From: Dendrobates tinctorius
Taxonomy: Eukaryota
Assembly: GCF_039654945.1 (NCBI RefSeq)
Contig: NW_027361688.1
Coordinates: 3,348,001 to 3,412,000, forward strand
Reading direction: 5' to 3'
Length of the DNA: 64,000 nucleotides
Each line of letters opens with the position of its first letter. The stretch's first letter is position 1. Below, in pieces: positions 531 to 40,766 of the stretch. Both the position numbers and the translations under genes were made by a program. Below the pieces are notes generated by a model. That model had not been told where the DNA came from. It saw only the letters and a program-made list of their open reading frames with translations, and searched no databases.

Positions 531-616
531 CTACACATAGAAAAAACATAAGCGTGCACAATGTAGTATAGATATAAGATACTAACCATGTGATTCCAGC
601 TTCGTCCTGGGGATTA

Positions 617-1428: not shown

Positions 1429-2760
1429 TATCTTATATCTATACTACATTATGCTTGCTTATGTTGTTTTTTCACCTCCTGCATTTTCGATTTCTAATTT
1501 CATGTATGTCTTAAACTTCAATAAAAAAAATATTTTTTTAATGGGCATACAATATATACTCTGTGGGTTCTCCTACTTTCCATGTGTAGTTCTATATGTT
1601 AATCAGTTCAGTCCTTGATTACTACTAACGATTGGTCTTGTGTAGTTAATTACTTTTTCTTCTGTTTTTGAACAGATTTAACCCCATTTGTCCATTATGG
1701 ACTTAAAGGCTAGGGAACAGACCTGGCCTAATAGAGCTTGTGACATTTTCAAACTGAGTGCTACTAGTAGTTCCAAAGATACCTATGACTATAAAGAAAA
1801 CACCAAAAAGTATCGTAATTTATTACACAAAATGACCCGTCTATGGTGGACCAAAACCTCCTTGGACAACTACTTTAACCAAAAGATCATCCCTAGAGGC
1901 CTTAAAATTCAGCTGTATCCCACCTTTGGCCTGGATGATGAGGTATTGATCAAAAAATGTCCTTCATTGCGATTATTAATGAAAAAAATGGGCAACTGTT
2001 GAATGAGGTTGATACCCAGATTGCTCAACTTCAAGCACAGATGTCCAAAGATTTAAAAGCCGATGAGGTTGAGAAATTCCATAAGGATGTTGACTGTGAT
2101 CTAGAAAAATGGGAAAAGGACATAAGTATGGAAAAAAATACCAGAGGGATCTAAATGATTACAAGACCAAAATCATTTCCAGATGGCAAAGAAGAGCACC
2201 AGAAGGACAAAAAACTATTTCTATGAACCCAATACCTCCCTGTCCTCAACATCAAATCATTCATCCTTTCACTGTTACTAATATGTTGGCTAGATTTGGA
2301 GGCCAAAGAAAGTACCCAAAGTACCCTAAAAATCCAGGGTTCAGGAATGAACCGCACAAGGTATTAAATTTATCCCATCATTGCCTTACTTCCATCCAAA
2401 CTAATGTTCTTGACAAAGGACTAACATTCTCTCTTGCTAAACCTTTAGATGCATTTACGGCATTAAAGGATATCCACCTGTTTGCTCGGAAACTTATTCT
2501 TAAGAGATTTCATGAGAGGTCATCCTCTGCCAATTTGTTTGAAACGGAAGAAGAACAACAAGCTTTGGCAATTTTAGAGTCCTTAGCTGATGGGAATGAG
2601 AGTTCCAAACCAACGGTGGTGAGTAATAATCCTTCCCATTTGTTTAAAAAAAAATAGAAAAAAATCCAAGTTTCACTACATGTCCGGCAGTAGATATTTT
2701 TGTTAAAATGGTCACAGCTGATATTGAAGGGTTAAAGAAGATCCCTACCTATCATACTAA

Positions 2761-6136: not shown

Positions 6137-7506
6137 CAGTGGTCCCCAACCTTTTTTGCACCAGGGACCGGCTTGAACCAAGACCATTCTTCCATGGCCC
6201 GGCAGGGCGGGGATGGAGGTGTGACAGGGGCGGGGCTTTGGTCATAAGGGGGCGGGGCTATGGACGCGGTTGTAGTTTAGCAGTGCATATTTATCATTTA
6301 ATTATAACATTTTTAATGTGACTCAACTCACCATAGGTTTTGAATGAGTGGGAGCACCTGGCTTGTTTCTCTGTTTCAGTGGGAGCACTGGGCTACTTCT
6401 ACTGATGACCGTCACTGCTAATGATGATTGGAACCTACAAGGAAATGGAGCATTGAGCACTTAAGAACAATTGTACTGGAGTACTGTACATGCTGATTAT
6501 TTTCTAATCATCAGAAAATGTATGTGTGGTCCCCCCCGTCCAGCTCTGTGTGGCTCCCCCTGTTGTATGCATGGCTCCCCTGTCCCATCCTGTATACATG
6601 GCTCTGCTCCCACTCTCCCATCCTTTATGCATGGCTCTGCTCCCACTCTCCCATCCTGTATATATGGCTCCGCTCCCATCCTCCCATCCTGTATGCATGG
6701 CTCTGCTCCCACTCTTCTATCCTGTATACATGGCTCCCCTGTCCCATCCTGTATGCATGGCTCCGCTCCCACTCTCCCGGCCTCCCTTGTATATATGGCT
6801 CCACTCCCACTCTCCCTCCCTTGTATATATGGCTCTGCTCCCACTCTCCCTCCCTTGTATATATGGCTCCGCTCCCACCCTCCCTCCCTTGTATATATGG
6901 CTCCGTTCCCACTCTCCCTCCCCTGTATATATGGCTCCGCTCCCACTCTCCCTCCCTTGTATATATGGCTCTGCTCCCACTCTCCCTCCCTTGTATATAT
7001 GGCTCCGTTCCCACTCTCCCTCCCCTGTATATATGGCTCCGCTCCCACTCTCCCTCCCCTGTATATATGGCTCCGCTCCCATTCTCCCTCCCTTATGGCT
7101 CCGCTCCCATTCTCCCTCCCTTATGGCTCCGCTCGGCTCCCCCATCCTCCCCATCATACTTACCCTCACGTTGCTGAACTTCCTTCCCGTCGCTGCACGT
7201 CCCTGCATCTCGCGGCGCTTCAGCTTCTTCCTGTGCGGAGCGGTCACATGATACCGCTCATTAAGGTCTATGAATATGGACGCCACGCCTATGGGAGATG
7301 AGTGGCGTCCATATTCATGACCTTAAATGAGCGGTAGCACGTGACCGCTCAGCGCTGGATGAAGCCGCCGCGGGATGAAGCCGCCGCGGGATGCAGGGTG
7401 AGTATCAGCTGCTGCACCGCCCCCCGGCTCCCCTTGTGTCCGCGGACCGGCAAGGGCACTGCAACGGCCCGGTGCTGGGCCGCGGACCGGCGGTTGGGGA
7501 CCCCTG
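6137..7506. mobile_element. Non-autonomous hAT (Charlie-like) element with internal 33-34-bp minisatellite, 8-bp TSD ATTTAGAG
   Basis: TIRs CAGTGGTCCCCAACC and GGTTGGGGACCCCTG; TSD at 6129-6136 and 7507-7514; repeat gtatatatggctccgctcccactctccctccc at ~6560-7130. Confidence 0.9.
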
Positions 7507-16751: not shown

Positions 16752-16913
16752 CAGGGTTCCCCAACTCCAGTCCTCAAGGCCCACCAACAGATCATGTTTT
16801 CAGGATTTCCTTAGTATTGCTCAGGTGGTGATTGTTTCACGTGTGCAACACAAAGGAAATCCTGAAAACATGATCTGTTGGTGGGCCTTGAGGACTGGAG
16901 TTGGGGAACCCTG
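16752..16913. mobile_element. hAT MITE, 8-bp TSD GTGTAAAG
   Basis: About 60-bp perfect TIRs CAGGGTTCCCCAACTCCAGTCCTCAAGG...; TSD at 16744-16751 and 16914-16921. Confidence 0.92.
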
Positions 16914-20805: not shown

Positions 20806-23800
20806 TTAGTATTCATCGTGATATGGATACTTGGGGCTTTCTTTCCAACTAAAATAAAAAAATAGAATATAAAAGTAAAGTAAGTACATAAAATGAAAGA
20901 TAATAAAAATACGTTAAAATATAATTTAATAAATAAAAATAGATAAAAGTAAATATAAAGAAAGAAATCTGAATATTTTTTTTCTTGGAAGGCAGAACGT
21001 CAGGAAAGACACTTACGCATCGATAATTAGGTAACGCATGTTTTTATTGACTCCATCTAGAGATTTCATGTCTTCATCATTTAACTCAAAGTCAAAAACC
21101 TGTAAGTGAAAAGTAATAAAAAATATAGATTATTTTTACGGTGAAGGAAATTATTCAAATTTTATTTTCTTCATTTACCTGGAAGTTTTGCTTGATCCTC
21201 TCAGGGCTGAAGCTTTTTGCCAAGACGACACATCCCCTCTGTAGCAAATATCTCATGGCCACCTGCGCAGGAGAGCGGCTCAGCTTCTTAGCGACTGTAT
21301 TTAAAACGGGGTCTTCAAGCACTTTGGGGGAATTCTGATCAATCCTGTCAGAAAGAAAATAAAATAAATCTTATACTTTTCCTAAAATTTTGGCAAAGGG
21401 ATAGGCAACAAGAACGTAGGGGACAATATTATATTAGTTATATTCTTGTACATATGGGCAGTATTATAGTAGTTATATTCTTGTACATAGGGGGCAGTAT
21501 TATAGTAGTTATATTCTTGTACATAGGGGCAGAATTATAGTAGTTATATTCTTGTACATAGGAGCAGTATTATAGTAGTTATATTCTTGTACATAGGGAG
21601 CAGTATTATAGTATATTCTTGTACATAGGGGCAGTATTATAGTAGTTATATTCTTGTCCATAGGGGCAGTATTATAGTAGTTATATTCTTGCACATAGGG
21701 AGCAGTATTATAGTAGTTATATTCTTGTACATAGGGGCAGTATTATAGTAGTTATATTCTTGTACATAGGGGCAGTATTATAGTAGTTATATTCTTGTAC
21801 ATAGGGGGCAGTATTATAGTAGTTATATTCTTGTACATAGGGGCAGAATTATAGTAGTTATATTCTTGTACATAGGAGCAGTATTATAGTAGTTATATTC
21901 TTGTACATAGGGAGCAGTATTATAGTATATTCTTGTACATAGGGGCAGTATTATAGTAGTTATATTCTTGTCCATAGGGGCAGTATTATAGTAGTTATAT
22001 TCGAGCTCATAGGGAGCAGTATTATAGTAGTTATATTCTTGTACATAGGGGCAGTATTATAGTAGTTATATTCTTGTACATAGGGGCAGTATTATAGTAG
22101 TTATATTCTTGTACATAGGGGCAGTATTATAGTAGTTATATTCTTGTATATAGGGGCAGTATTATAGTAGTTATATTCTTGTACATAGGGGCAGTATTAT
22201 AGTAGTTATATTCTTGTACATAGGGGCAGTATTATAGTAGTTATATTCTTGTACATAGGGGCAGTATTATAGTAGTTATATTCTTGTACTCTTGTACATA
22301 GGGGCAGTATTATAGTAGTTATATTCTTGTACATAGGAGCAGTATTATAGTAGTTATATTCCTGTACATAGGGGGCAGTATTATAGTTGTTAGATTCTTG
22401 TGCATAGGGGCAGTATTATAGTAGTTATATTCTTGTATATAGGGGCAGTATTATAGTAGTTATATTCTTGTACATAGGGGCAGTATTATAGTAGTTATAT
22501 TCTTGTACATAGGAGCAGTATTATAGTAGTTATATTCTTGTACATAGGAGCAGTATTATAGTAGTTATATTCTTGTACATAGGGAGCAGTATTATAGTAG
22601 TTATATTCTTGTATATAGGGGCAGTATTATAGTAGTTATATTCTTGTACATAGGGGCAGAATTATAGTAGTTATATTCTTGTACATAGGAGCAGTATTAT
22701 AGTAGTTATATTCTTGTACATAGGGAGCAGTATTATAGTAGTTATATTCTTGTACATAGGGGCAGTATTATAGTAGTTATATTCTTGTACATAGGGGCAG
22801 TATTATAGTAGTTATATTCTTGTACATAGGGGCAGTATTATAGTAGTTATATTCTTGTATATAGGGGCAGTATTATAGTAGTTATATTCTGGAAAATAGG
22901 AGCAGTATTATAGTAGTTATATTCTTGTACATAGGGGCAGTATTATAGTAGTTATATTCTTGTATATAGGGGGCAGTATTATAGTAGTTATATTCTTGTA
23001 CATAGGGGCAGTATTATAGTAGTTATATTCTTGTACATAGGGGCAGTATTATAGTAGTTATATTCTTGTACATAGGGGCAGTATTATAGTAGTTATATTC
23101 TTGTACATAGGGGCAGTATTATAGTAGTTATATTCTTGTACTCTTGTACATAGGGGCAGTATTATAGTAGTTATATTCTTGTACATAGGAGCAGTATTAT
23201 AGTAGTTATATTCCTGTACATAAGGGGCAGTATTATAGTAGTTATATTCTTGTACATAGGGGCAGTATTATAGTAGTTATATTCTTGTACATAGGGGCAG
23301 TATTATAGTAGTTATATTCTTGTACATAGGGGCAGTATTATAGTAGATATATTCTTGTATATAGGGGCAGTATTATAGTAGTTATATTCTGGAAAATAGG
23401 GGCAGTATTATAGTAGTTATATTCTTGTACATATGGAGCAGTATTATAGTAGTTATATTCTTGTACATAGGAGCAGTATTATAGTAGTTATATTCTTGTA
23501 CATAGGGGCAGTATTATAGTAGTTATATTCTGTACATAGGGGGCAGTATTATAGTAGTTATATTCTTGTACATAGGGGGCAGTATTATAGTAGTTATATT
23601 CTTGTACATAGGGAGCAGTATTACAGTAGTTATATTCTTGTACATAGGAGCAGTATTATAGTAGTTATATTCTTGTACATAGGGGCAGTATTATAGTAGT
23701 TATATTCTGTACATAGGGGGCAGTATTATAGTAGTTATATTCTTGTACATAGGGAGCAGTATTATAGTAGTTATATTCTTGTACATAGGGGCAGTATTAT

Positions 23801-26800
23801 AGTAGTTATATTCTGTACATAGGGGGCAGTATTATAGTAGTTATATTCTTGTACATAGGGAGCAGTATTATAGTAGTTATATTCTTGTACATAGGAGCAG
23901 TATTATAGTAGTTATATTCTTGTACATAGGGGCAGTATTATAGTAGTTATATTCTTGTACATAGGGGCAGTATTATAGTAGTTATATTCTTGTACATAGG
24001 GGCAGTATTATAGTAGTTATATTCTTGTACATAGGGAGCAGTATTATAGTAGTATATTCTTGTACATAGGAGCAGTATTATAGTAGCTATATTCTTGTAC
24101 ATAGGGGCAGTATTATAGTAGTTATATTCTGTACATAGGGGGCAGTATTATAGTAGTTATATTCTTGTACATAGGGGGCAGTATTATAGTAGTTATATTC
24201 TTGTACATAGGGAGCAGTATTATAGTAGTTATATTCTTGTACATAGGAGCAGTATTATAGTAGTTATATTCTTGTACATAGGGGCAGTATTATAGTAGTT
24301 ATATTCTTGTACATAGGGGCAGTATTATAGTAGTTATTTTCTTGTACATAGGAGCAGTATTATAATAGTTATATTCTTGTACATAGGGGCAGTATTATAG
24401 TAGTTATATTCTTGTACATATGGGCAGTATTATAGTAGTTATATTCTTGTACATAGGAGCAGTATTATAGTAGTTATATTCTTGTACATAGAGGCAGTAT
24501 TATAGTAGTGATATTCTTGTACATAGTTGGCAGCATTATAGTACTTATATTCTTGTACATAGGGGGCAGTATTACAGTACTTATATTCTTGTACATATGG
24601 GCAGTATTATAGTAGTTATATTCTTGTACATAGGGAGCAGTATTATAGTAGTCATATTCCTGTATATAGGGGCATAATTATAGTAGTTATATACTTGAAC
24701 ATAGGGGCAGTATTATAGTAGTTATATTCTTGTACATAGGGGCAGTATTATAGTACTTATATTCTTGTACATAGGGGGCAGTATTACAGTACTTATATTC
24801 TTGTACATATGGGCAGTATTATAGTAGTTATATTCTTGTACATAGGGAGCAGTTTTATAGTAGTCATATTCCTGTATATAGGGGCAGTATTATAGTAGTT
24901 ATATACTTGAACATAGGGGCAGTATTATAGTAGTTATATTCTTGTACATAGGGGACAGTAGTATAGTAGTTATATTCTTGTACATAGGGAGCAGTATTAT
25001 AGTAGTCATATTCCTGTATATAGGGGCAGTATTATAGTAGTTATATTCTTGTACATAGGAGCAGTATTATAGTAGTTATATTCTTGTACATAAGGGGCAG
25101 TATTATAGTACTTATATTCTTGTACATAGGGGGCAGTATTATACTAGTTATATTCTTGTACATAGGGGGCAGTATTATAGTACTTATATTCTTGTACATA
25201 GTGTAAGGCAGATCTCACTGAGTGCATTGGGGAGCGCCCGCTTGGCAGCGCTATAACATACAGGAAGACTCAATTTCCTTAAAAGTTCTCCTGGGTTTAT
25301 TGCTCCATATTTCTAGCAGCGCAAACGCAGAGTAGTCAGCCTTTAGGTCCAACATAAAATAATAACGTCCATAATCAGGGCTTTGCTCCCTCAGACCTTG
25401 TTCACACACAGGCCAGGGCAATGTCCATTAAACACTCAGTTCCATAGGACAGTACAGTCTCTTACTGACCGAGGACAGTGCCACTCACGGTTGTCCGACC
25501 GTCCACTCTGGAGGTATCTCACAGACCTCTTCCTCTGGTTCAGGAAAGCCAGCGCTGCTTCCCCAGGCTGTGCGATATCCAGCAAGCAGGGTTGGCCAGG
25601 AGCCACACACACAGGAGACCTTCTACCTCCCAGGTCACAGACAACCCTGCCAGTCATTGTTTCTGCATCACCACAGGGGGAACGGCTGTATGCATGACCT
25701 GGGGAGCCCACGTAGCGCCCCCTAGCTGTCAGAGGGGTTACTGCATTACAATAGGAGCAGTATTACAGTAGTTATATTTATAGATTTGCCTTTTTCTAGG
25801 ACACCATCAGATATAATAAAACAATGTTCTTGCTCTTACGCGCCCTTTGTTCTGCTGGACCCCAGTACGCTGTATCCGACCAGCACGATCTTATGAGATT
25901 TGCAGAACTCCAGTAATTTGCTCTGATTGAGGAATATGTGACATTCTACCTGTGCAGAGATATAATGGTTCATTACTGTATATAAAAGTGCGGATGATCT
26001 GCAATAATTTAAAGAACATTTCACTGTAAACAACATATCTGCTTATTTTCCAGAAACAGCGCCACAACTGTCTATGGGTTATATCTGGTATTACAGCTCC
26101 ATTAATGTGAAAGGAGCTGTGCTGCAATACCACACACAACCTGTAAGGAAGATTGGCACTTTTTCTCATTTTTTATCTGTGATTGATCCTTACTGGTCGG
26201 TGACATGTACCTGGTTGCACACTGGTTTGTACTTGAGTCCTGGCATGTTGAGAATCAGCTCCAGTTGCCGACGGTTAAAATTGGAGACTCCGATGGATCG
26301 GACGAGGCCGGCGTCTCTGCACGCTTCCATAGCCTAGAGGTTATGGTAAGATAATCTGGGAGATGCTCCATCCGAAAATGGGAATCTTACCCCGTATGGA
26401 GGAGAAGTCATTCTGCCCGGAGTCACCCATAATCTTATATATAATTTACCTTCCATGTTTCTCGGATATCTGTGTTATGGAAAGCCAATTTCCCATTTTC
26501 GTCTGTGGGAAAGAGATCATCTCCGGGCTGGATGGAGAGAAAAAAAAGAATTCACATATAATGTCTTCTGCTCTGATCTGATTGGGAGCCACGATCGATC
26601 CCACACACATATCCAGAAACCTTAAACTCCACTGGGGTGTGGATCAGGAAGAGATCCATGTAATCCAGCTGCAGATCCTTCAGAGATTTCTCCAGCCCGA
26701 GTCGGACCCTCTCGGGAGTGTGGTTATTGCCCCAAAGCTACAAAATATATTAAAAACCTGTAATAGCTCATCATCGCCACCTAGTGGTCATGTTAAAGTG

Positions 26801-27259
26801 AAAAAGATTATTTTGATAGGTCACCTTCCCAGTGTAAAAAATGTCTTCCCTCTTCACAGTCCCATCCGCAATCTTTGATCTAATGGCTTGGCCGACCTGG
26901 ACCTCATTCCTGTATATTAAGGCGCAGTCGATGTGGCGGTATCCGACCTCAATGGCGACCTTGGTGCTCTCACCGGCCTGTTCTTTGGTGTACTGTGCAG
27001 AATAAGATGACATTTTTATGGATCTCAATGCTTCCTTGTGAAATAAATAACGCATAGAGTGATGGCACGGTGTTCCAAATAGTGAAACATTGTGGTGGCG
27101 AGAGACCGGCAGTAATGCCGCTTTGCTTTGGATTCAGTAGTGCAGCCGCTACTTTATGTCTGATGCACTCACCGTGTCCGGGGCGTAGGTGCCAAATCCG
27201 ATCACTGGCATTTTATTCCCATCGTTCAGCACCACGTAGGAGTCCGGCTTCAGAGCCAT
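20806..27259 (-). CDS. Aldo-keto reductase family 1 (AKR1C / rho-crystallin / prostaglandin F synthase-like), intact, 9 exons, 324 aa (AKR-A)
   Basis: Exons (minus): 27259-27173 (87), 26992-26825 (168), 26737-26621 (117), 26527-26450 (78), 26333-26211 (123), 25949-25840 (110), 21344-21179 (166), 21099-21017 (83), 20848-20806 (43) = 975 nt. All introns are GT-AG and exon sizes match the AKR1 pattern. Protein: [27 protein letters not shown]...[11 protein letters not shown]...FYTGKLW...LFLIHTP...SIGVSNFN...VCNQVECH...LAKSF...YPYHDEY. Catalytic tetrad D51/Y56/K85/H118 is present. Confidence 0.95.
21430..25201. repeat. 35-36-bp minisatellite array in AKR-A intron 6 (about 105 copies)
   Basis: Unit cagtattatagtagttatattcttgtacatagggg. 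Confidence 0.97.
25202..25750 (-). mobile_element. Solo LTR in the minisatellite, 4-bp TSD ATAG
   Basis: TGTAAGGCA...TGCATTACA; atag on both sides; one more minisatellite unit follows. Confidence 0.7.
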
Positions 27260-27311: not shown

Positions 27312-27529
27312 CTGGTCCTTCCCCTACCGTACCGCCCGTCCCAAAGGTCAGTGAAGGCGGACGCCTATTCGTCACGGATTCTACATTGTCATTGCTTAAC
27401 ACCTACATATGGGATGGGAAAAACGTGAATGAAGGGAGAGGTCACAGAGAAACTCTAGAAGGCTGTGTCTTCACGATTGCTTCATAAGAAGTGAACTAGA
27501 AAAAATACATAAAGGGGAAAAGTTCCCTC

Positions 27530-27974
27530 TTGATCCCAAGCGACCATCAGAATGGATGATCACTTATAATCCCAAGTGTGGATGAGATAAGATCAATGTT
27601 GATGTTTCCGAGTATCGATCAAACTGGAACCACACGATCCAGAGTGTCAATCAGACCGGATCACCAACCAGGATCAGTGTCGATTGGAAAGAATGAACTT
27701 TAGTAATTCCGTTTGTGAATCACATCAAATCGTCATCCTGGAATCCTAAGCTTCGATCATAGCAGTCATGATCCAGAGTGTCTATCAGACCGGATCGATA
27801 ATCACGTGATATCCTGAGAGTCGATCAGATCAATTTTCATATTTCCGAGAGTCGATCAGTCCGGATCAACATTTAAAATCCCAAGTGTTTATAATATTCA
27901 TAATCCCTAGTGTCGATGAGACTGAATCAAAATGAATAAACCCGAGTCTGGATCAAAGCGGATCAACAGTCATG
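27530..27974. repeat. Degenerate ~36-bp GATC-rich repeat upstream of AKR-A (continues at 37126-37290 and 37835-38680)
   Basis: Same consensus as 190-530 and 9610-10340. Confidence 0.8.
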
Positions 27975-28794
27975 TGTTATGATGAGTCACCGAAGGAGGA
28001 AAAAACAAAATACTAGCTAAGTCCAGAAAAACCAGAGAGGTTGGCAGCTATCGGATTGCAGACCCCTGAACCTATCCACAACAACTAGCAGTAGCCGTGG
28101 GGGGTTCCTACGGTGCCCTAGACCCCTCGATCACAGCCGGAGAACTACATAGCCTAAAGGCAGAAACGGGAAAAACTAAACTGCCCCAGAGCAGACCCCA
28201 AAGCAATAGGCAGCCCCCAACATATAATGACGGTGAAGCAAGATGAAAACACTAACACAGATAGAAAGATAGGTTGAGCAAATGATGGGGCCCAAGCTAA
28301 CTAAAATAGGACAGGATAGGAAAGCTCCTGTCTGCCATCCGCAAAAACCCTATCAAAAAATGTCCCAACCGTCTGATAGGAAAAACAGGCCCTGAAGACG
28401 CTAGGCTTCAAAAGACTATATCAGCACTCAGGTAAATTCTGAAGACAGAGCAAAAGATAAACAGATCAGAGACAAAAATGAAATTCAGCTCACCCCCGGC
28501 CGGGGACGGCAGAACTCCCAAAAAACAAGGCAAAGCAAAAACAAAACTGAAGTGTACAAAGCAGAGCAGAAAAACTTAGCTTTGAGACACAGGAATCAGA
28601 CTGGTCTCCAAGAATCCAGCAGGATCACCAGCAAGGCAGAAGGGCATCGGCTGCCTTATATCCAGTCCTTAATTCCAGCCACCCAGTCATCATCTAGCTG
28701 CCCAGGTGTTTCGTAATCAGCCTCACTACCTACCTTCACCAGAAGTGGGAGTTCATCAGACCTCAACGGTGAAGGGAAAAATGAACTCACAACA

Positions 28795-31700
28795 GTACCT
28801 CCCCCTTGAGGAGGGGTCACCGAACCCTCATCCATGCCACCAGGGCGATCCGGGTGAGCCCGAAGAAAGGCACGCACCAATCTTTCGGCATGAATATCAG
28901 AGGCAGAGACCCAGGAATTATCCTCCTGACCATAACCCTTCCACTTAACCAAATACTGGAGTCTCCGTCTAGCCAGACGGGAATCCAGTATCTTCTCTAC
29001 CTCATATTCCATGTTACCTTCAACCAATACAGGGTCAGGAGGTGCCACCACAGGAACTACTGGTTCAACAAACCTCTTCAACGAGGACTTATGAAACACA
29101 TTATGAATTTTAAATGTGACAGGAAGAGCCAACCGAAAAGAGACCGGATTAATAATCTCCAAAATCTTGTAAGGTCCAATAAATCTAGGCTTAAACTTAG
29201 GAGAAGCCACCTTCATAGCGATATTTTTTGATGACAACCAAACCATATCACCCACCTTAAACTGGGGACCAACGGTCCTACGCCGGTTGGAAAACCGCTG
29301 GGCCTTTTCCTGGGAGAGAGACAACTTATCCACTACTTGGTCCCAGATCTGGTGCATTCTCTCCACCACAGTGTCAACACCTGGGCAGGCAGAAGGCTCC
29401 ACCTGCCCTGAAGAAAATCGAGGGTGAAACCCAAAGTTACAAAAAAAAGGTGACATCAAAGTGGCAGAACTAGCTCTATTATTTAAAGCAAATTCGGCCA
29501 AGGGCAAAAATGAAACCCAATCATCCTGATCTGCAGAAATAAAACATCTCAAATACGACTCCAAAGTCTGTTTTGTTCTCTCCGTCTGCCCATTGGTCTG
29601 AGGGTGAAACGCAGAGGAGAAGGACAACTGAATTCCCAGCTTGGAACAGAAAGTCCTCCAAAATCTAGACACAAACTGAACTCCTCTGTCAGATACAATG
29701 TTCTCAGGAATCCTATGCAAGCGAACCACCTGTTGCAAAAACAAGGGCACCAACTCAGAGGAAGATGGCAACTTAGGGAGTAGTACAAGATGGACCATCT
29801 TAGAGAATCTATCACAAATCACCCAAATAACAGTCATTCTCTGAGAGACAGGCATATCAGAGATAAAATCCATTGAAATATGGGTCCATGGCCTCCTGGG
29901 CACCGGCAAAGGCATCAACAAGCCACTAGAGCGAGAGCAAGGTTTAGACCGGGAGCAAGTCCCACAGGACTGCACAAAATTCCTGACATCATGAGACAAG
30001 GCGGGCCACCAAAAAGATCGACTCACCAGATCTCTAGTACCAAAAATACCTGGATGACCAGCCAATGCGGAGCAATGAACTTCAGACATCACTCTCTTCC
30101 TCCACTGGTCAGGAACATACAACTTTCCACTGGGACAACACTCAGGTTTGTCCTCCTGAAACTCTTCCAGAGCACGTCTCAAATCGGGCGAGATGGCAGA
30201 AAGAACTACGCCCTCGCCTAAGATGGTAGCAGGCTTCGTCACAAAAGGAGAATCAGCAAGGAAACTCCGAGAGAGGGCGTCTGCCTTGACATTCTTATTG
30301 CCTGGAAGAAGACCACAAAATCAAAACGTGTGAAAAACAAGGCCCACCTAGCCTGTCTAGGATTCAAGCGCTTGGCCGACTCCAGGTAAATCAAATTCTT
30401 GTGGTCAGTAAGGACCACGACTTGGTGTTTGGCTCCCTCCAACCAATGTCTCCACTCAAATGCACATTTCATGGCCAACAGATCCCGATTTCCCACATCA
30501 TAGTTAGGTTCGGATGGGGAGAACTTTCGGGAAAAGAAAGCACAAGGATTCATTTTAGATGTCACAGGATCTTTTTGGGACAACACCGCTCCTGCACCAA
30601 TCTCAGAAGCGTCCACCTCCACCTGAAACGGGAATGAGACATCAGGTTGCCGCAAAACCGGAGCAGAAGTGAATCTTCGTTTCAGCTCCTGAAAGGAAGA
30701 AACAGCCTCCGGAGACCAATTCAGCACATCAGCACCCTTCCTAGTCAAATCAGTCAATGGCTTGGCAATACCAGAAAAATTAGCTATAAATTTCCGATAA
30801 AAATTAGCAAAACCCAAAAACTTCTGGAGGGCCTTCAAAGAAGTGGGCTGAACCCAATCATAAATGGCCTGTACCTTGGCCGGGTCCATTTCAATAGTTG
30901 ACGGAGACAAAATAAATCCCAAAAATGACATCCTCTGTACCCCAAAAAGGCATTTCAATCCCTTGACATACAGGGAATTCTCCCTCAAAATCCGGAACAC
31001 AGTCCGAACATGTTCCACATGAGAGTCCCAATTCTTGGAGAAGATCAAAATATCATCCAGATAGATAATCAAAAATTTATCCACAATGTCTCGGAATATA
31101 TCGTTCATGAAGCACAGGAAGACAGAAGGGGCATTAGTGAGCCCAAAAGGCATCACCAGGTACTCAAAATGTCCCTCCGGAGTATTAAACGCCATCTTCC
31201 ATTCATCCCCATGCTTAATGCGAATAAGATTATACGCCCCCCTGAGGTCAAGCTAGGTAAACCAGCAAGCACCTTTAACTCTGGAGAATAGATCAGAAAT
31301 CAGGGGTAACGGATACTGATATTTAACAGTAATTTTGTTGAGGGCACGATAATCAATACAAGGCCTTAAAGAACCATCCTTTTTGGCCACAAAAAAAAAA
31401 AAAACGGCACCTAAGGGTGAAGAGGATGGTCTAATATGACCCTTCTCCAACGCCTCCTTAATATAGGATCGCATAGCCTCGTGCTCGGGTACAGATAAAT
31501 TGAAGAGCCGACCCTTGGGAAATTTACACCCCGGGCTCAGTTCAATTGCACAGTCATAACTCCTATGAGGAGGCAAAGACGCAGACTCATTCTCACTAAA
31601 TACATCATAAAAGTCAGCCAAATAGTCAGGAACATCATGCGACTGGGGAGAGGTGGAGAAAACAGGAGCATCACTAAGGGCACACCGACAACCCCAACTC

Positions 31701-32722
31701 ACCACAGACAAAGATTTCCAATCCAGAACTGGATTATGGATTTGCAACCAGGGAAACCCCAGAACAATGGTATCATGCAAATTATGCAACACCAAAAATC
31801 TGCAATTTTCTTGATGGTCTGGGGCGACCCGCATGACCACCTGGGTCCAAAACTGAGGTTTATTCTTCGCCAAAGGAGTAGCATCAATACCCCTCAAAGG
31901 GATAGGCGTCCGCAGAGGTGTCATAGGAAATCCACAACGTTTAGCAAAATCCAAGTCCATTAGGTTCAGGGCTGCTCCCGAATCCACAAAAGCCTTGGCG
32001 GAAAATGTGGACAGGGAGCAGATCAGAGTAATTGCCAGAAGAAACTTAGGTTGAACACCACCCACAGAAAACGTGTGTGCACAACGTTTCTATCGTTTAG
32101 GGCAGACAGAAATAATATGTGAGGCATCTCCACAAAAAAAACACAGCTTATTACGCCCTCTGAACTCCTGACGTTGCGCCCTAGACAAAACTCTATCACA
32201 TTGCATAGGTTCAGACATTTTTTCAACAGGTGGCAACATCTCTCGTGTAGTTTTGCGTTCACGTAAACGCCGATCCACCTGAATGGCTAATGACATAGAA
32301 TCGTCAAGACCAGAGGGAACAGGAAATCCCAACATAGTATCTTTTACAGTTTCTGACAAACCCTTCCAAAAGAGGGCTGCCAAGGCACCATCATTCCAGG
32401 TAGTAAGGACCGCCCACTTTTGGAATTTTTGACAGTACAACTCTGCCGAATCCCGACCCTGGCTTAATGCCAACAGAGTCTTTTCAGCCTGATCAATAGC
32501 ATTAAGTTCATCATACAACAACCCCAAGGCTTGAAAAAATGCGTTCACATTATTCAGAATAGGATCATCAGGTTTCAAAGAAAACGCCCAATCCTGGGGA
32601 TCACCGCGCAGCAAAGAGATGACAATTTTAACCTGCTGCGCGGAGTTCCCCGACGAGTTAGGCTTCAAGGCAAAAAATAACTTACAATTATTCTTGAAAT
32701 TCAAGAATTTAGACCGATCCCC
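28795..32722 (-). pseudogene. Gag-pol of the Sushi-like element, minus copy (CCHC, protease, RT, RNase H, integrase, chromodomain), frameshifted
   Basis: [65 protein letters not shown]. Confidence 0.9.
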
Positions 32723-33248
32723 AAGGACTAGGGATCGGTCTAAATTCGGATGGCAGACAGCAGCTTTTCTATCCTGTCCTATTTTAGTTAGCTTGGGCCC
32801 CATCATTTGCTCAACCTATCTTTCTATCTGTGTTAGTGTTTTCATCTTGCTTCACAGTCATTATATGTTGGGGTCTGCCTATTGCTATGGGGTCTGCTCT
32901 GGGGCTGTTTAGATTTCCCTTTCTGTCTTTAGGCTATGTAGCTCTCCGGCTGTGATCGAGGGGTCTAGGGCACCGTAGGAACCCCCCACGGCTACTGCTA
33001 GTTGTTGTGGATAGGTTCAGGGGTCTGCAATCCGATAGCTGCCAACCTCTCTGGTTTTTCTGGACTTAGCTGGTATTTTGTTTTTTCCTCCTTCGGTGAC
33101 TCATCATAACAGAATCACCAGCCATACCGCAGATCCTAGGGTACTCAATAGCAGGAGAGAATTGTAAAAAAAAAAAGTATGTCAGAATTTTTTTTGTGCA
33201 TATTTTTTCCTCTATATCTCTGAGGCCGTAGGGGGAATTTTTCTCTCA

Positions 33249-36200
33249 ATGGAGATGAAGCAATTGTCTGATCGTGTGGAGCAGCTCGCTGCTGAAGTGC
33301 GGGGAATTTCCGCCTATCTTGCTCATTCACATGCTGCTGAACCAAAGATTCCTACTCCTGATGTGTTTTTCGGGGATCGGTCTAAATTCTTGAATTTCAA
33401 GAATAATTGTAAATTATTTTTTGCCTTGAAGCCTAACTCGTCGGGGAACTCCGCGCAGCAGGTTAAAATTGTCATCTCTTTGCTGCGCGGCGATCCCCAG
33501 GATTGGGCGTTTTCTTTGAAACCTGATGATCCTATTCTGAATAATGTGAACGCATTTTTTCAAGCCTTGGGGTTGTTGTATGATGAACCTAATGCTATTG
33601 ATCAGGCTGAAAAGACCCTGTTGGCATTAAGCCAGGTTCGGGATTCGGCAGAGTTGTACTGTCAAAAATTCTGAAAGTGGTCGGTCCTTACTACCTGGAA
33701 TGATGGTGCTTTGGCAGCCCTCTTTCGGAAGGGTTTGTCAGAAACTGTAAAAGATACTATGGAGGGATTTCCTGTTCCCTCTGGTCTTGACGATTCTATG
33801 TCATTAGCCATTCAGGTGGATCAGCGTTTACGTGATCGCAAAACTACACGAGAGATGTTGCCACCTGTTGAACAAATGTCTGAACCTATGCAATGTGATA
33901 GAGTTTTGTCTAGGGTTTGTCTAGGGTGCAACGTCAGGAGTTCAGAAGGCGTAATAAGCTGTGTTTTTTTGTGGAGATGCCTCGCATGTTATTTCTGTCT
34001 GCCCTAAACGAGAGAAACGTTGTGCACACACGTTTTCTGTGGGTGGTGTTCAACCTAAGTTTCTTCTGGCAATTACTCTGATCTGCTCCCTGTCCACATT
34101 TTCCGCCAAGGCTTTTGTGGATTCAGGAGCAGCTCTGAACCTGATGGACTTGGATTTTACTAAACGTTGTGGATTTCCTATGACACCTCTGCGGACGCCT
34201 ATCCCTTTGAGGGGTATTGATGCTACTCCTTTGGCGAAGAATAAACCTCAGTTTTGGACCCAGGTGGTAATGCGGGTCTCCCCAGACCATCAAGAAAATT
34301 GCGGATTCTTGGTGTTGCATAATTTGCATGATACCATTGTTCTGGGGTTTCCCTGGTTGCAAATCCATAATCCAGTTCTGGATTGGAAATCTGTGTCTGT
34401 GGTGAGTTGGGGTTGTCGGTGTGCCCTTAGTGACGCTCCTGTTTTCTCCACCTCTCCCCAGTCGCATGATGTTCCTGACTATTTGGCTGACTTTTATGAT
34501 GTATTTAGTGAGAATGAGTCTGCGTCTTTGCCTCCTCATAGGAGTTATGACTGTGCAATTGAGCTGAACCCGGGGTGTAAATTCCCCAAGGGTCGGCTTT
34601 TCAATTTATCTGTACCCGAGCATGAGGCTATGCGGTCCTATATTAAGGAGTCGTTGGAGAAGGGTCATATTAGACCATCCTCTTCACCCTTAGGTGCTGG
34701 GTTTTTTTTCGTGGCTAAAAAGGATGGTTCATTAAGGCCTTGTATTGATTATCGGGCCCTCAACAAAATTACTGTTAAATATCAGTATCCGTTACCCCTG
34801 ATTTCTGATCTATTCTCCAGAGTTAAAGGTGCTTGCTGGTTTACCAAGCTTGACCTCAGGGGGGCGTATAATCTTATTCGCATTAAGCATGGGGATGAAT
34901 GGAAGATGGCGTTTAATACTCCGGAGGGACATTTTGAGTACCTGGTGATGCCCTTTGGGCTAACTAATGCCCCTTCTGTCTTCCAGTGCTTCATGAGCGA
35001 TATATTCCGAGATATTGTGGATAAATTTTTGATTATCTATCTGGATGATATTTTGATCTTCTCCAAGAATTGGGACTCTCATGTGGAACATGTTCAGACT
35101 GTGTTCCGGATTTTGAGGGAGAATTCCCTGTATGTCAAGGGATCGAAATGCCTTTTTGGGGTACAGAGGATTTCATTTTTGTGATTTATTTTGTCTCCGT
35201 CAACTATTGAATTGGACCCGGCCAAGGTACAGGCCATTTATCATTGGGTTCAGCCCACTTCTTTGAAGGCCCTCCAGAAGTTTTTGGGTTTTGCTAATTT
35301 TTATCAGAAATTTATAGCTAATTTTTCTGGTATTGCCAAGCCATTGACGGATTTGACTAGGAAGGGTGCTGATGTGCTGAATTGGTCTCCGGAGGCTGTT
35401 TCTTCCTTTCAGGAGCTGAAGCGAAGATTCACTTCTGCTCCGGTTTTGCGGCAACCTGATGTCTCACTCCCGTTTCAGGTGGAGGTGGACGCTTCTGAGA
35501 TTGGTGCAGGAGCGGTGTTGTCCCAAAAAGATCCTGTGACATCTAAAATGAATCCTTGTGCTTTCTTTTCCCGAAAGTTCTCCCCATCCGAACGTAACTA
35601 TGATGTGGGGAATCGGGAACTGTTGGCCATGAAATGGGCATTTGAGGAGTGGAGACATTGGTTGGAGGGAGCTAAACATCAAGTTGTGGTCCTCACTGAC
35701 CACAAGAATTTGATTTACCTGGAGTCGGCCAAGCGCTTGAATCCTAGACAGGCTAGGTGGGCCTTGTTTTTCACACGTTTTGATTTTCTGGTCTCTTTTC
35801 TTCCGGACACTAAGAATGTCAAGGCAGACGCCCTCTCTAGGAGTTTCCTTGCTGATTCTCCTGTTGTGACTAAGCCTGCTACCATCTTAGGCGAGGGGGT
35901 AGTTCTTTCTGCCATCTCGCCTGATTTGAGACATGCTCTGGAAGAGTTTCAGGAGGACAAACCTGAGCGTTATCCCAGTGGAAAGTTGTATGTTCCTGAC
36001 CAGTGGAGGAAGAGAGTGATGTCTGAAGTTCATTGCTCTGCATTGGCTGGTCATCCGGGTATTTTTGGTACTAGAGATCTGGTGAGTCTGTCTTTTTGGT
36101 GGCCCGCCTTGTCTCGTGATGTCAGGAATTTTGTGCAGTCCTGTGGGACTTGCTCCCGGTCTAAACCTTGTTCTCGCTCTAGTGGCTTGTTGATGCCTTT

Positions 36201-36990
36201 GCCGGTGCCCAGGAGGCCATGGACCCATATTTCAATGGATTTTATCTCTGATATGCCTGTCTCTCAGAGGATGACTGTTATTTGGGTGATTTGTGATAGA
36301 TTCTCTAAGATGGTCCATCTTGTACCACTCCCTAAGTTGCCATCTTCCTCTGAGTTGGTGCCCTTGTTTTTGCAACAGGTGGTTCCCTTGCACGGGATTC
36401 CTGAGAACATTGTATCTGACAGAGGAGTTCAGCTTGTGTCTAGATTTTGGAGAACTTTCTGTTCCAAGCTGGGAATTCAGTTGTCCTTCTCCTCTGCTTT
36501 TCACCCTCAGACCAATGGGCAGACGGAGAGAACAAACCAGACCTTGGAGTCGTATTTGAGATGTTTTATTTCCGCTGATCAGGATGATTGGGTCTCATTT
36601 TTGCCCTTGGCCGAATTTGCTTTAAATAATAGAGCTAGTTCTGCCACTTTGATGTCACCTTTTTTTTGTAACTTTGGGTTTCACCCTCGATTTTCTTCAG
36701 GGCAGGTGGAGCCTTCTGCCTGCCCAGGTGTTGACACTGTGGTGGAGAGAATGCACCAGATCTGGGACCAAGTAGTGGATAAGTTGTCTCTCTCCCAGGA
36801 AAAGGCCAAGCGGTTTTCCAACCAGCGTAGGACCGTTGGTCCCCAGTTTAAGGTGGGTGATATGGTTTGGTTGTCATCAAAAAATATCGCTATGAAGGTG
36901 GCTTCTCCTAAGTTTAAGCCTAGATTTATTGGACCTTACAAGATTTTGGAGATTATTAATCCGGTCTCTTTTCGATTGGCTCTTCCTGTC
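33249..36990 (+). pseudogene. Gag-pol of the Sushi-like element, plus copy, truncated before the chromodomain
   Basis: ORFs 33249-33674, 33961-35184 and 35191-37047; stops at 33672 and 35182; ~10-bp duplication near 33910. Confidence 0.9.
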
Positions 36991-37290
36991 TTCCAGTCCT
37001 CAATTCCATCCACCCAGTCATCATCTAGCTGCCCAGGTGTTTGGTAATCAGCCTCACTACCTTCCTTCACCAGAGGAGGGAGTTCATCAGACCTCAACGG
37101 TGAAGGGAAAAATGAACTCACAACAGTCATGATCCCGAGTGTGGATCAGACAAGGTCAATGTTGATGTTTCTAATTGTGGGTCAGACTGGGTCAACATTA
37201 ATAATCCTGAGTGTTGATCATAATATTCATGATCCCAAGTGTCGATCAGACTGGACTAATATTCACGATCATGAGGATCGATCATTATTT

Positions 37291-37830
37291 GAATCATAGA
37301 ATCATAGAATCGTAGAGTTGGAAGGGACCTCCTGGGCCATCTGGTCCAACCCCCTGCTCAAAGCAGGATTCGCTAAATCATCCCAGTCAGATGTCTGTCC
37401 AGCCTCTGTTTGAAGACTTCCATTGAAGGAGAACTCACCACTTCTCGTGGCAGCTTGTTCCACTCATTGATCACTCTAACTGTCAAAAAGTTTTTTCTAA
37501 TATCTAATCTGTGTCTCCTCCCATTCAGTTTCATCCCATTGCTTCTAGTCTTTCCTTGTGCAAATGAGAATAAAGTTGATCCTTCTACAATGTGACAGCC
37601 CTTTAGATATTTGTAGACAGCTATTAAGTCTCCTCTCAGTCTTCTCTTTTGCAAACTAAACATTCCCAAATCCTGCAACCTTTCCTCATAAGACAGGGTT
37701 TGCAGACCGGTCACCATTTTGGTCGCTCTTTTCTGAACTTGCTCCAGTTTGTTGATGTCTTTTTTAAAATGTGGCGCCCAAAACTGGACACAATATTCCA
37801 GATGAGGTCTGACCAAAGAGGAGTAGAGGG
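37291..37830 (-). mobile_element. CR1 LINE 3' fragment
   Basis: [42 protein letters not shown]; 3' (ATTCTATG)n tail at 37291-37312. Confidence 0.93.
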
Positions 37831-40766
37831 AAATAATGTGATCAGGCTGGATCATGGATAATGTGATCAACTATGTGATCAGGCTGGATTAACACTCCTT
37901 ATCTTCAGTGTCGATCAGACTAAATTGTCATCCAGGATCCCAAATGTCGATCATTTGTGATCCCGAGTGTCAAATAGACCAGATCATCAATTGGGATCAC
38001 AAGTGTCGATTATATTGGATCAATATTCATAATCCAAAGTGTCACTCAGATCAGTTCAACATTCATGATCCCGATAGTTGATCAGACCTGTTCTACATTC
38101 GATCAGACAGTATCAACATTCGTGATCCCAAGAATCAATCAGACCAGATTGTTATTTGGGATCAGAGGTTTGATCAGACTGGTTCTACATTTAAGATCCC
38201 TTGTGTCAATCAGACTGGATCACCAACCAGGATCCCAGTGCTGTTAATATCCATGATCCCGAGTGTCAAACAGACCAGATCATCCCAAGTGTCGATCCTA
38301 CCAGATTAATATTTATGATCCCGAGAGTCAATCAGAGCAGATGGTTATTTGGGATCACATGTGTGCTCAGACTAAATCTACATTCATGATCCCAAGTGTG
38401 AATAAGACAGGATCACCAGCTAGGATGCCAAATGTTGATCATAACATTCTTGATATCGAGTGTCAAACAGACCTGATCACCATTGGGATCACAGGTCTCG
38501 AACAGACTGGATCACCATTCATGATCTTGAGTGTCATTCAGATCAGATCATCACTAAGGATCACAAGTGCTGCTTAGACTGGATCAACATTCATTATCCC
38601 GAGTGTCAAAAAGACCAGATCACCAAGTAAGGATCACAAGTGGATCAACATTCGATCAGACCGGATCTACACTCAGAACGATTCTATGTGTTGACATGAG
38701 CGGTAATGTTGTTTCATTCTAAGAAATCATATAAGCCATCTTTTTTAAGCTATGGACTGTGCCCGCAGCGACCCATTCCTGATGTGACCGCTCGATCACT
38801 GGTGGATCTAATCGTTTTTTTTAATGTCGCTCTTGTAATCAGAAGGAGCTGCCGACAATTTGTGCGTGAGGTTGAGCGGCCGTATTAATATTCATTCTTT
38901 TCTCTACGGTTACATCAGCTTATGTGATCTGGTATTATGTAATGTGACTTCCTCTTATGTAGATATCGTTCTCTCCCGTATTTACATTTACCTAGCAGTG
39001 GCCACTAGGGGGCACATATGTACCTTAAAAAAAAAACTGATTTGTCATCATTCTTCAGCATATACCGATGTCTATGAACTTTGCTCAGGTTTATACATTA
39101 ACTCTGGTGACCTCACACACGACATACAAAAATGTGCATGAAATCAAATGTGTAGGTGCCCTTTAAGGGCGAAGTAACAAAACATGTCCCATAGGACGAG
39201 CACATAGATCTCATTCTTACAAGTGTCTGTAGTAATATTTCTCATGGTGGGGGGATTCTGAATGGTCCTTCCATCTAGAAGAACATATATTGTATTATAG
39301 ACAATGCAGATAATAGGACAAGGCAGTTTCTTGGGGGTGTAATTACACACCTGTCCTGCAGGTGTCACTGTTACTCTCTATATTGGGAGTGTTCCATTCT
39401 AGAATTTTCGTAGGCTGGATTCACATTATGGTTCTTCCAGCCCAGCAGATGGTAAAAGATGGGTCTGTAAAGTTCTACAAGACACTTTCTGTAATCAGAC
39501 CAATCATCCGAATCATCAAATCTCGGGTCAGTTGTGCATGTATTTGGCAAATATCCATTAAAGGGGTATTCCCATCTCCGGCACTTATTTGCCAACATTT
39601 CTGGTAGGAGTGGGGGTATTTGAGCTCCAAACCTTTCCTTTCTTTCACCCACCCAGGAACTCCCTCATCCGTCCTGGTAACGTCTCCAGGACAGATACTT
39701 TGGGTCAGGGTTTACATAAACCACACCCACTTGGCTTAGTAGCAGAATGGCCATGTCTCCTTCTGAGAACTGGAAATCTAAAACCTTGGATGATTCAGAC
39801 TAAAGTAATGATCGGCAAAGTTTTTGACATTTAAACTTACTAAATTTCGGAAAAAAAAATCAAAAGTACTCTAAAGTCTCAAGTTGCCCTGAATAGTCAT
39901 GTATAATACTGTACTGTTTTCCTCCAACACTGATCATCTTCCCTGCAATACTGTTATACACTGTCTGTATAGTTTATTCAGTGTGCAATGACATTTTCTC
40001 CCTATCTCTGTGGCTCTCCAGATTGACTACAAAAGGGCTGCTGCATTCCCTGCCTTGGCTTTTATACTGGCTATGATAGTTCCTCCTGATTGGCTGTGCA
40101 GTACCATGTGATATGGTGGCTGCAAGGCATTATGGAGAAGTCCGCTTGACGTCATGTGATCCTAATCTGGCTGATGAAATCTTCTGCAATGTGTTAAATA
40201 GCAGTGGCCATTTTAGGCGATTCATGTGAAGCAATTTGAATCATAAATTGTTTAAATTTGGCAGGTTCAGCTAATTCCTAAAATTCAGCACAAATTTGAT
40301 TTGCATCAAATCAGTTGACTCTTCACTAGAAAATAGCATTAATATCAATGATATTCTTTACTCACATAGAATCAACATATCCCATTATTATTCATATATT
40401 TCAGAGACAAACTAATAAACACATCAAACTAAAAGAATGAGGTAGCGCATTCCAGAGAAGTGGCGCAGCACAAGAGAAATGTTAGGCTCATCTGGTGATG
40501 CACATTCTCCAAACCCTTCTACGGGTGGGGATACGAGCTACGGGCGTCAATGAAGCAGCGAGGTGGGGCACACGGGACATGGACAACTGAAAGACTGGCA
40601 TGCCACAGGTAGACAGGTGGAATACTGATAACTATAGGCAAGCAGGTGGGATGCTGGAAACCACTCTCAGGTGGGAAACATCCATGAAACCGCAGGCAAG
40701 CGGAATACTGAAACCGCTGGCATGCGGGAGACGTCTAGGAGACCTCAGGCAAGCATTTGTTGATCT

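What the first reader, a model, noticed from the sequence alone, without database searches (positions are those of the whole stretch)
27975..37125. One retrotransposon insertion folded into a ~3.6-kb inverted repeat just upstream of AKR-A
A single GTCATG TSD brackets both gag-pol copies. Arms 29118-32722 and 33372-36990 are inverted near-identical copies about 650 bp apart, and 32747-33111 is an inverted copy of 27975-28341. In element orientation the path is: first 135 nt of the LTR, jump to the integrase end, copy backwards into the LTR, jump to gag, continue to the end. Inference: a template-switch inverted duplication. Read-through transcription would give a long hairpin dsRNA (an endo-siRNA or piRNA source against this family), and the DNA could extrude a cruciform starting under 2 kb from the AKR-A start codon.
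Basis: partly seen in the sequence, partly recalled or inferred. Interest (0 to 1): 0.7.

Follow-up and report, generated by a model that had tools for sequence, protein, structure and literature searches.

The report
Two retrotransposon copies nested head-to-head
Just upstream of an aldo-keto reductase gene, a 4.2-kb piece of one jumping gene sits backwards inside the front end of a different copy of the same family, likely an ordinary nested insertion later trimmed by DNA repair rather than one element folded back on itself, and no evidence shows that it makes silencing RNA.

Summary
The structure is real: inverted arms 29118-32722 and 33372-36990 (97.2% alike) of a Ty3/gypsy chromovirus inside one 6-bp TSD, the family's normal length. 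It is not a duplication of one template. The arms differ more than 98% of random pairs among 60 genomic copies, share no mutation unique to them, and disagree at 8 of 21 inherited lineage markers, against 6 of 623 between the two LTRs of intact copies. The outer frame (LTR 1-134, left arm, 3' LTR) is lineage X; the inverted 4.24-kb insert is mostly lineage Y2, with three patches matching the left arm, likely early gene conversion. The central junction has a 17-nt snap-back insert typical of end joining. Two of 60 sampled copies also lie in antisense nests. Both 5' promoters are gone, the 649-bp spacer argues against a cruciform, and RNA output is untested. Reads did not settle the junctions. 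The scan noted a similar one-off antisense nest in another genome. Ordinary; low interest.

The parts
27969..27974 (.). Left copy of 6-bp target-site duplication GTCATG
   Evidence: family TSD is 6 bp in 33 of 35 two-LTR copies
27975..28794 (-). Complete 820-bp 3' LTR of host element A (lineage X); TATAA at 28660-28656 and predicted self-priming 5' sequence at 28632-28622 point towards AKR-A
   Evidence: promoter role inferred
28795..28811 (-). Polypurine tract of element A
   Evidence: sequence; same tract in copy L087
28795..32724 (-). Internal region of element A: gag (5' end lost), protease, RT, RNase H, integrase with SH3 and chromodomain; reading frame interrupted
29118..32722 (-). Left arm of the 3.6-kb inverted repeat (part of A, lineage X1)
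32705..32747 (.). Central junction: end of A, 6-nt filler (32725-32730), then a 17-nt inverted copy of A's own end (32731-32747) giving a 17-bp stem with 9-nt loop; 1-nt microhomology into B
   Evidence: end-joining origin inferred
32747..36990 (+). Inverted 4244-bp fragment of a second copy B (reference positions 454-4708): mostly lineage Y2, both termini missing, reading frame interrupted
32747..33111 (+). LTR positions 454-820 of B (no U3, TATA or start site); A-type alleles at 32783/32785, Y2 alleles at 32942/33072
32856..32917 (+). Patch in B's LTR with alleles found in the diverged sister-subfamily set and almost never in 102 young LTR rows
33112..33123 (+). Primer-binding site of B, complementary (10 of 11) to LTR 163-173: predicted self-priming
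33372..36990 (+). Right arm of the 3.6-kb inverted repeat (part of B)
34651..35014 (+). Patch of B that carries A-type alleles, including two rare ones shared with arm A: likely early gene conversion between the arms
36985..36998 (.). Outer junction: B cut inside integrase, one extra base, A's 5' LTR cut immediately before its TATAA; CTTCC direct repeat across the join
36992..37125 (-). First 134 nt of A's 5' LTR (lineage X alleles at LTR 74 and 107, where 8 of 8 Y2 copies differ)
37126..37131 (.). Right copy of the TSD GTCATG
21010..27259 (-). Neighbouring host gene AKR-A (aldo-keto reductase, AKR1-type exon layout), ATG 27259; exons 1-6 with canonical splice sites, frame open through exon 7

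Best explanation
The locus is a composite of two different copies of one Ty3/gypsy chromovirus family: host element A keeps its TSD, 3' LTR and first 134 LTR bases, and a 4.24-kb piece of a second copy B lies backwards in its 5' end, likely because B inserted antisense into A and both junctions were later trimmed by end-joining deletions, with likely early gene conversion between the arms. Shown: two lineages, one TSD, junction anatomy, loss of both 5' promoters. Inferred: nested integration (B's own ends and TSD are gone), palindrome-driven deletion at the centre, polymerase-theta-type repair, conversion. It most likely does nothing specific: it is a dead, promoterless inverted repeat that would give hairpin RNA only on read-through from outside.
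For: Arms 2.83% apart, more than 98% of 1770 random pairs among 60 copies (median 2.1%); 53 of 60 and 52 of 60 copies are closer to an arm than the arms are to each other. No state unique to both arms; 31 and 35 rare non-CpG states each. Discordant at 8 of 21 markers against 6 of 623 in 38 intact LTR pairs; independent pairs median 6; 4 of 15 non-CpG markers, P 1e-5 to 8e-4. Haplotypes: A = X1, B = Y2 with three A-type patches; outer LTR piece is X, not Y2. Antisense nests occur in the family: one with its 6-bp TSD intact (G000:C46) and one truncated (G000:C564), 2 of 60 copies; truncated or gapped copies are common in that survey. 17-nt snap-back insert matches the SD-MMEJ snap-back scheme (PMC5728401 passages). 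Head-to-head junctions commonly carry asymmetric deletions (PMC8701086 passages).
Against: B's termini and TSD are absent, so integration of B is not shown, and two separate deletions are needed; the outer deletion has no strong palindrome to drive it. Both ends and one middle patch of B are A-type, and two rare alleles are shared (12 of 1596 control pairs reach 2), which needs added conversion; divergence inside the patch is not reduced (9/344 vs 89/3240), so it must be early. The tree is star-like and does not reject the arms as a clade (p-AU 0.34). Markers were defined after the fact on 56 copies chosen as best hits to the arms, out of thousands of candidates; 4 of the 8 discordant markers are in CpG context. 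The two antisense nests involve a more diverged (86-88%) relative, not two young copies. No read bridges either inner junction.
Confidence: 0.55

Rival explanations
1. One-step repair event: a break in A's 5' end (LTR 135 to gag) was repaired by capturing or copying a 4.24-kb fragment of another family copy or free cDNA in reverse orientation, with template switches between A and the donor; B was never integrated on its own.
For: One event explains both junctions; both look like end joining; B is A-type at both ends; both arms carry similar mutation loads (31, 35); the filler resembles bases beside the other junction (6-7 nt, post hoc, about 3% by chance). Capture of retrotransposon cDNA at breaks is reported in yeast (PMC11372161, search listing and start of abstract only).
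Against: Homology-directed repair between family copies normally keeps orientation (established knowledge); blind capture of a same-family fragment needs a burst-time coincidence; nested antisense precursors already exist in this genome.
Confidence: 0.22
2. Chimera made before integration: two co-packaged RNAs (X1 and Y2) or two cDNAs were joined by aberrant reverse-transcriptase switches with polarity change, and the 9.15-kb product integrated once.
For: Both outer LTR ends and a normal 6-bp TSD are present; B alternates between exactly A's type and Y2, as copy-choice recombination would give; no sign that one arm is younger.
Against: With two RNAs and RNase H, B should be the reciprocal mosaic of A; it matches A in its patches except at one site (inference). 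B's LTR joins a PBS as in a finished 5' LTR and stops at LTR 454, not at the predicted RNA 5' end near 163. A third, sister-subfamily patch sits in B's LTR.
Confidence: 0.13
3. One reading: one template folded back by template switching (true inverted duplication), with later drift or ectopic conversion creating the differences.
For: Single TSD; arm divergence (2.8%) is like LTR-piece divergence here (2.7-4.5%); AU test does not reject arm monophyly; arms share lineage-X and two rare alleles.
Against: 8 of 21 marker discordance vs 0.96% control; the discordant alleles form one coherent Y2 haplotype; 33112-33371 and the LTR-PBS join are absent from arm A, so a nascent strand could not have copied them from itself; it would need at least two long conversion tracts from one minority lineage.
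Confidence: 0.05
4. Assembly artefact: a fold-back read or mis-join between repeat copies.
For: No contig of the laid runs bridges the central junction, though local depth is about 2 and such holes prove nothing.
Against: Fold-back reads give near-identical arms, not 101 differences sorted by lineage; a mis-join would not leave a matching TSD of the right length, lineage-matched outer LTR pieces and a templated filler.
Confidence: 0.05

Closest known systems
Antisense nested self-insertion of EVADE (Arabidopsis Ty1/copia), PMC11624286 (passages read)
   Same: An LTR retrotransposon inserted backwards into a copy of its own family, giving inverted repeats proposed as a hairpin or dsRNA source; siRNA output was not tested there either.
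   Different: EVD nest keeps both elements' LTRs and the inner TSD and its promoters; here a vertebrate Ty3/gypsy nest lacks B's ends and both 5' promoters.
Same-family nested insertions ('autoinsertions') of plant Ty3/gypsy elements, PMC6911290 (passages read)
   Same: Gypsy elements insert into their own family, in either orientation.
   Different: That survey covers plants and intact nested pairs; here the inner copy is a trimmed fragment with conversion patches.
Mu killer (maize MuDR inverted duplication; cited in PMC11624286 passages and reference list, details recalled)
   Same: A rearranged, inverted transposon sequence that could give hairpin RNA against its family.
   Different: Mu killer is a single-element duplication of a DNA transposon, is transcribed from a flanking promoter and silences in trans; none of these is shown here and single-element origin is not met.
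SD-MMEJ snap-back junctions, PMC5728401 (passages read); asymmetric deletions at head-to-head transgene junctions, PMC8701086 (passages read)
   Same: Inverted templated insert next to the break with short microhomology; asymmetric deletion leaving a spacer at a palindrome centre.
   Different: Those are experimental breaks and transgenes; here the enzyme and order of events are inferred from one junction.
Tf1/sushi-group chromoviruses (PMC6317226 passages)
   Same: Gypsy domain order, integrase chromodomain, PBS complementary to a site 25-30 nt downstream of the LTR TATA (predicted self-priming).
   Different: No tree against named sushi elements was built; 6-bp TSD here.

Membership tests
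Ty3/gypsy chromovirus (Tf1/sushi group) | gag-PR-RT-RNaseH-INT order between LTRs with TG...CA ends and PPT | tested here: met
Ty3/gypsy chromovirus (Tf1/sushi group) | Chromodomain at integrase C-terminus | tested here: met
   PF00385 E 2e-14 in arm A frame
Ty3/gypsy chromovirus (Tf1/sushi group) | Self-priming PBS complementary to the transcript 5' end | tested here: inconclusive
   10 of 11 complementarity to LTR 163-173, 28 nt after TATAA; start site not mapped
Ty3/gypsy chromovirus (Tf1/sushi group) | RT phylogeny with named Tf1/sushi elements | not tested
   no such tree built
Single-template inverted duplication (fold-back / template switch) | Arms identical at birth, hence concordant at inherited markers | tested here: not met
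   8 of 21 discordant vs 6 of 623 control; X vs Y2 haplotypes
Single-template inverted duplication (fold-back / template switch) | One TSD around the whole structure | tested here: met
Antisense nested same-family insertion | Outer element with own TSD, interrupted by a different copy in reverse orientation | tested here: met
Antisense nested same-family insertion | Inner element has LTR termini and its own TSD | tested here: inconclusive
   both termini of B are absent: lost by deletion or never present
Mu-killer-type hairpin silencer | Long inverted repeat able to pair | tested here: met
   98% paired incl. G-U; 2425 and 2288 of 3585 21-nt windows fully paired
Mu-killer-type hairpin silencer | A transcript running through both arms | not tested
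   no RNA run laid; internal 5' promoters are deleted
Mu-killer-type hairpin silencer | Locus-derived small RNAs and silencing of the family in trans | not testable with these tools
   needs small-RNA and segregation data

The most novel reading that the evidence does not exclude
A heterozygous retrotransposon particle produced a single 9-kb chimeric cDNA with a built-in 3.6-kb inverted repeat that integrated once, and read-through across it made a vertebrate 'killer' locus whose hairpin RNA helped end the family's burst, while its surviving 3' LTR promoter points into an aldo-keto reductase gene.
Probability: 0.05. Interest if true: 0.7.

Novelty: new member of a known kind. Interest (0 to 1): 0.25.

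Why it matters
As it stands it matters little: antisense nests of LTR elements are known, and 2 of 60 sampled copies of this family lie in one, so a family with thousands of copies likely has many dsRNA-capable loci. It is a clean worked case that one TSD around two inverted arms does not mean one template, and that lineage markers rather than overall divergence decide this in a young family. If arm-specific small RNAs were found it would be a traceable hairpin source in a vertebrate, because the 101 arm differences and two unique junctions allow reads to be assigned. The intact 3' LTR facing AKR-A is the more plausible route to any effect on the host gene.

Tried and rejected
Reads: Logan contigs of four runs of one sample laid on 27400-37700 and four runs on the central junction: no contig bridges 32725-32744; a single-copy flank contig has depth about 2 and reaches only 26 bases into the LTR, so neither presence nor absence follows. 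Trees: the first (FastTree) split the arms mainly through a misaligned poly-T run and was discarded; the IQ-TREE tree of 58 rows (L036, L041, L045, L054 left out) is star-like, p-AU 0.34, uninformative. A spreading rearranged variant: rejected, junction searches found only the window (40 candidates scored each). A lineage carrying B's whole inner-LTR haplotype: not found among hits. Recent homogenisation of arms: longest identical run 214 bp, P 0.17. Excess CpG decay as a sign of special methylation: 89 and 85 of 101 CpG kept vs 5096 of 5757 in 57 other copies, no excess. A clustered-difference control for the old-type patch counted deletions as differences and was not used. Chance TSD in the flanking repeat: GTCATG is 3 of 22 CATG sites, two being the TSD copies. 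Filler templated from the other junction: 6-7 nt, post hoc, not relied on. A tblastx for AKR exons timed out and was replaced. Absolute dating was not attempted (no rate for this genome). Paper searches listed no vertebrate case of this kind by title or abstract start; this is not proof of absence, and no supplements were read.
Full report
Setting. The window lies at G000:C20:3348001-3412000 in a 6.36-Gb, 830-contig genome, a vertebrate by inference from the intron layout of its reductase genes. It holds part of a tandem cluster of aldo-keto reductase genes, all on the minus strand, with start codons at window positions -115, 27259, 60974 and 75972. The gene at 27259 (AKR-A) has canonical splice sites for exons 1-6 and an open frame through exon 7 (my exon-7 bounds were set 3 nt off the AG/GT sites).

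Observation. Self-comparison confirms every coordinate: arms 29118-32722 and 33372-36990 are inverted, 101 mismatches in 3601 bases, 649 bp apart; 32747-33111 is an inverted copy of 27975-28341 (10/365); 36992-37125 repeats the LTR end directly (6/134); GTCATG flanks both ends. Pfam gives gag, protease, RT, RNase H, integrase, SH3 and chromodomain, a Ty3/gypsy chromovirus; both arms have interrupted frames. The PBS is complementary at 10 of 11 bases to LTR 163-173, 28 nt after the single TATAA at LTR 135, as described for self-priming Tf1/sushi elements (PMC6317226, passages). The family is large (at least 2825 LTR and 8468 internal candidates), about 5.85 kb long, and makes 6-bp TSDs in 33 of 35 two-LTR copies. 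Against one natural copy the locus reads: positions 5851-1098 minus, 454-4708 plus, 134-1 minus. Neither junction recurs among the 40 candidates scored in each search.

One template or two? I fetched 60 near-full-length copies, the best hits to either arm. The arms are 2.83% apart, more than 98% of the 1770 pairs among those copies (median 2.1%); 53 and 52 of 60 copies are nearer to an arm than the arms are to each other. LTR pairs of 41 copies differ by a median 1.6%. The family is a star-like burst, and the tree cannot reject the arms as a clade (p-AU 0.34), so distance alone does not decide. No state is unique to the two arms, while each has 31 or 35 rare non-CpG states (median 24 in 57 others); a late duplication is therefore excluded. 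Inherited markers decide the rest. Seventeen LTR sites are concordant between the two LTRs of intact copies (6 discordances in 623 comparisons, 38 pairs), and 17 internal sites are in linkage with others. Over the 21 markers that both arms cover they disagree at 8; independent copies disagree at a median of 6 (1540 pairs). Without CpG-context sites it is 4 of 15, P 1e-5 at the control rate and 8e-4 at three times it. The haplotype table shows arm A and the 3' LTR as lineage X1 and the inverted segment as lineage Y2 (LTR 651, LTR 781, 32178, 31979, 30752, 29992 in arm-A coordinates). The outer 134-nt LTR piece has the X alleles at LTR 74 and 107, where 8 of 8 Y2 copies differ. So the frame is one element, A, and the insert comes from another, B. 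Caveat: markers were defined after the fact on copies chosen for likeness to the arms, and internal inheritance is inferred from linkage.

Against a clean two-copy picture: B carries A-type alleles in three patches (32783/32785; 34651-35014; the site matching 29430), including two rare alleles shared with arm A, a level reached by 12 of 1596 control pairs. Divergence inside the middle patch is not lower (9/344 vs 89/3240), so any conversion was early. Arm A has the non-X allele at 31453. B's LTR also has a 60-bp patch of sister-subfamily alleles. Non-reciprocal patches fit gene conversion between neighbouring arms better than a two-RNA particle, where RNase H should leave reciprocal mosaics (inference).

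Junctions. Centre: A ends at 32724, then GGACTA, then a 17-nt inverted copy of A's own end, then B's LTR at position 454 with one shared base. This is the snap-back pattern of synthesis-dependent microhomology-mediated end joining (PMC5728401, passages). Outer: B is cut in integrase, one extra base follows, and A's 5' LTR is cut immediately before TATAA. Head-to-head junctions commonly lose their centre asymmetrically (PMC8701086, passages).

Precedent in the same genome. Among the 60 copies, one (G000:C46) sits antisense inside a diverged relative with its 6-bp TSD ATCGAG intact, and one (G000:C564) is cut by an antisense relative whose LTR end abuts it and whose remainder is missing. Truncated or gapped copies are common in the same survey. 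Nested antisense insertion followed by deletion is thus a route this family takes; I give it 0.55, one-step capture or repair copying 0.22, a pre-integration chimera 0.13, single-template fold-back 0.05, misassembly 0.05. B's missing ends prevent a firmer split.

Function. A transcript through both arms would pair at 98% of positions. But the arms lie head to head with both 5' promoters removed; the only intact TATA is in the 3' LTR and points away from the repeat, towards AKR-A, about 1.4 kb upstream of its ATG, with no AATAAA or ATTAAA in the LTR. Hairpin RNA would need outside read-through; this was not tested. CpG retention in the arms matches the family. A cruciform over a 649-bp spacer with mismatched arms is unlikely; even short spacers stabilise palindromes (PMC8701086, passages). 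Only the 17-bp stem at the centre is a tight hairpin. Laid contigs neither confirm nor contradict the junctions.

Comparison. It resembles the antisense self-nest of EVADE (PMC11624286, passages) and plant gypsy autoinsertions (PMC6911290, passages). It would work like Mu killer (recalled; cited in PMC11624286) only if transcribed, and fails that model's single-element origin. The scan holds one similar note from another genome and none near this locus. Verdict: real, a new instance of a known kind of rearrangement, interest 0.25.

Noticed in passing
window 28660-28622 (minus strand): The intact 3' LTR keeps its TATAA and predicted start site in the same orientation as AKR-A, about 1.4 kb upstream of the ATG, and has no AATAAA/ATTAAA: a candidate alternative promoter for the gene.
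   Followed up: partly
window 4157-4954: Solo LTR of the diverged sister subfamily (about 9% substitutions from the 3' LTR) with a 6-bp TSD carrying one mismatch, upstream of the AKR paralogue at -115; another diverged LTR lies at L164:3856-4646. Three AKR promoter-side regions thus have LTRs of this family nearby or upstream.
   Followed up: partly
window -115, 27259, 60974, 75972 (first and last outside the window): At least four tandem AKR1-type genes; in AKR-A and AKR-B a ~35-bp AT-rich satellite of 3.8-5 kb (21414-25201; about 53100-58340) fills the intron between exons 6 and 7.
   Followed up: partly
G000:C46:73836097-73850250 (L153, L154): Young copy inserted antisense into a diverged relative with TSD ATCGAG intact, giving about 4-kb inverted arms at 86% identity; its own 5' LTR is interrupted by a 2.4-kb insertion.
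   Followed up: yes
G000:C564:479577-485757 (L151, L152): Young copy cut at position 4922 by the exact LTR end of an antisense sister-subfamily element that is itself truncated: nested insertion plus deletion.
   Followed up: partly
L057 and L155 (G000:C70:13748421-13755076); L074 (G000:C107): Same-orientation self-nesting: in L057 a diverged LTR sits just before the PPT of a young copy; in L074 a diverged LTR begins 6 bp after the young 3' LTR.
   Followed up: no
L038/L041, L054/L061, L042/L045: Near-identical element pairs on one contig (L042/L045 with the same TSD), suggesting segmental duplication or uncollapsed haplotypes.
   Followed up: no
window 37291-37840: High-copy fragment with a 165-aa minus-strand frame and no Pfam hit; resembles the 3' end of a CR1-type LINE (recalled, untested).
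   Followed up: no
window 44000-45100: Old degenerate gypsy integrase remnant, about 70% like arm A at 44983-45082.
   Followed up: no
window 745-1345, 7223-7365, 16752-16913, 57098-57223: Several short imperfect inverted repeats (MITE-like) and tandem arrays at 6557-7141 and 60584-60822.
   Followed up: no
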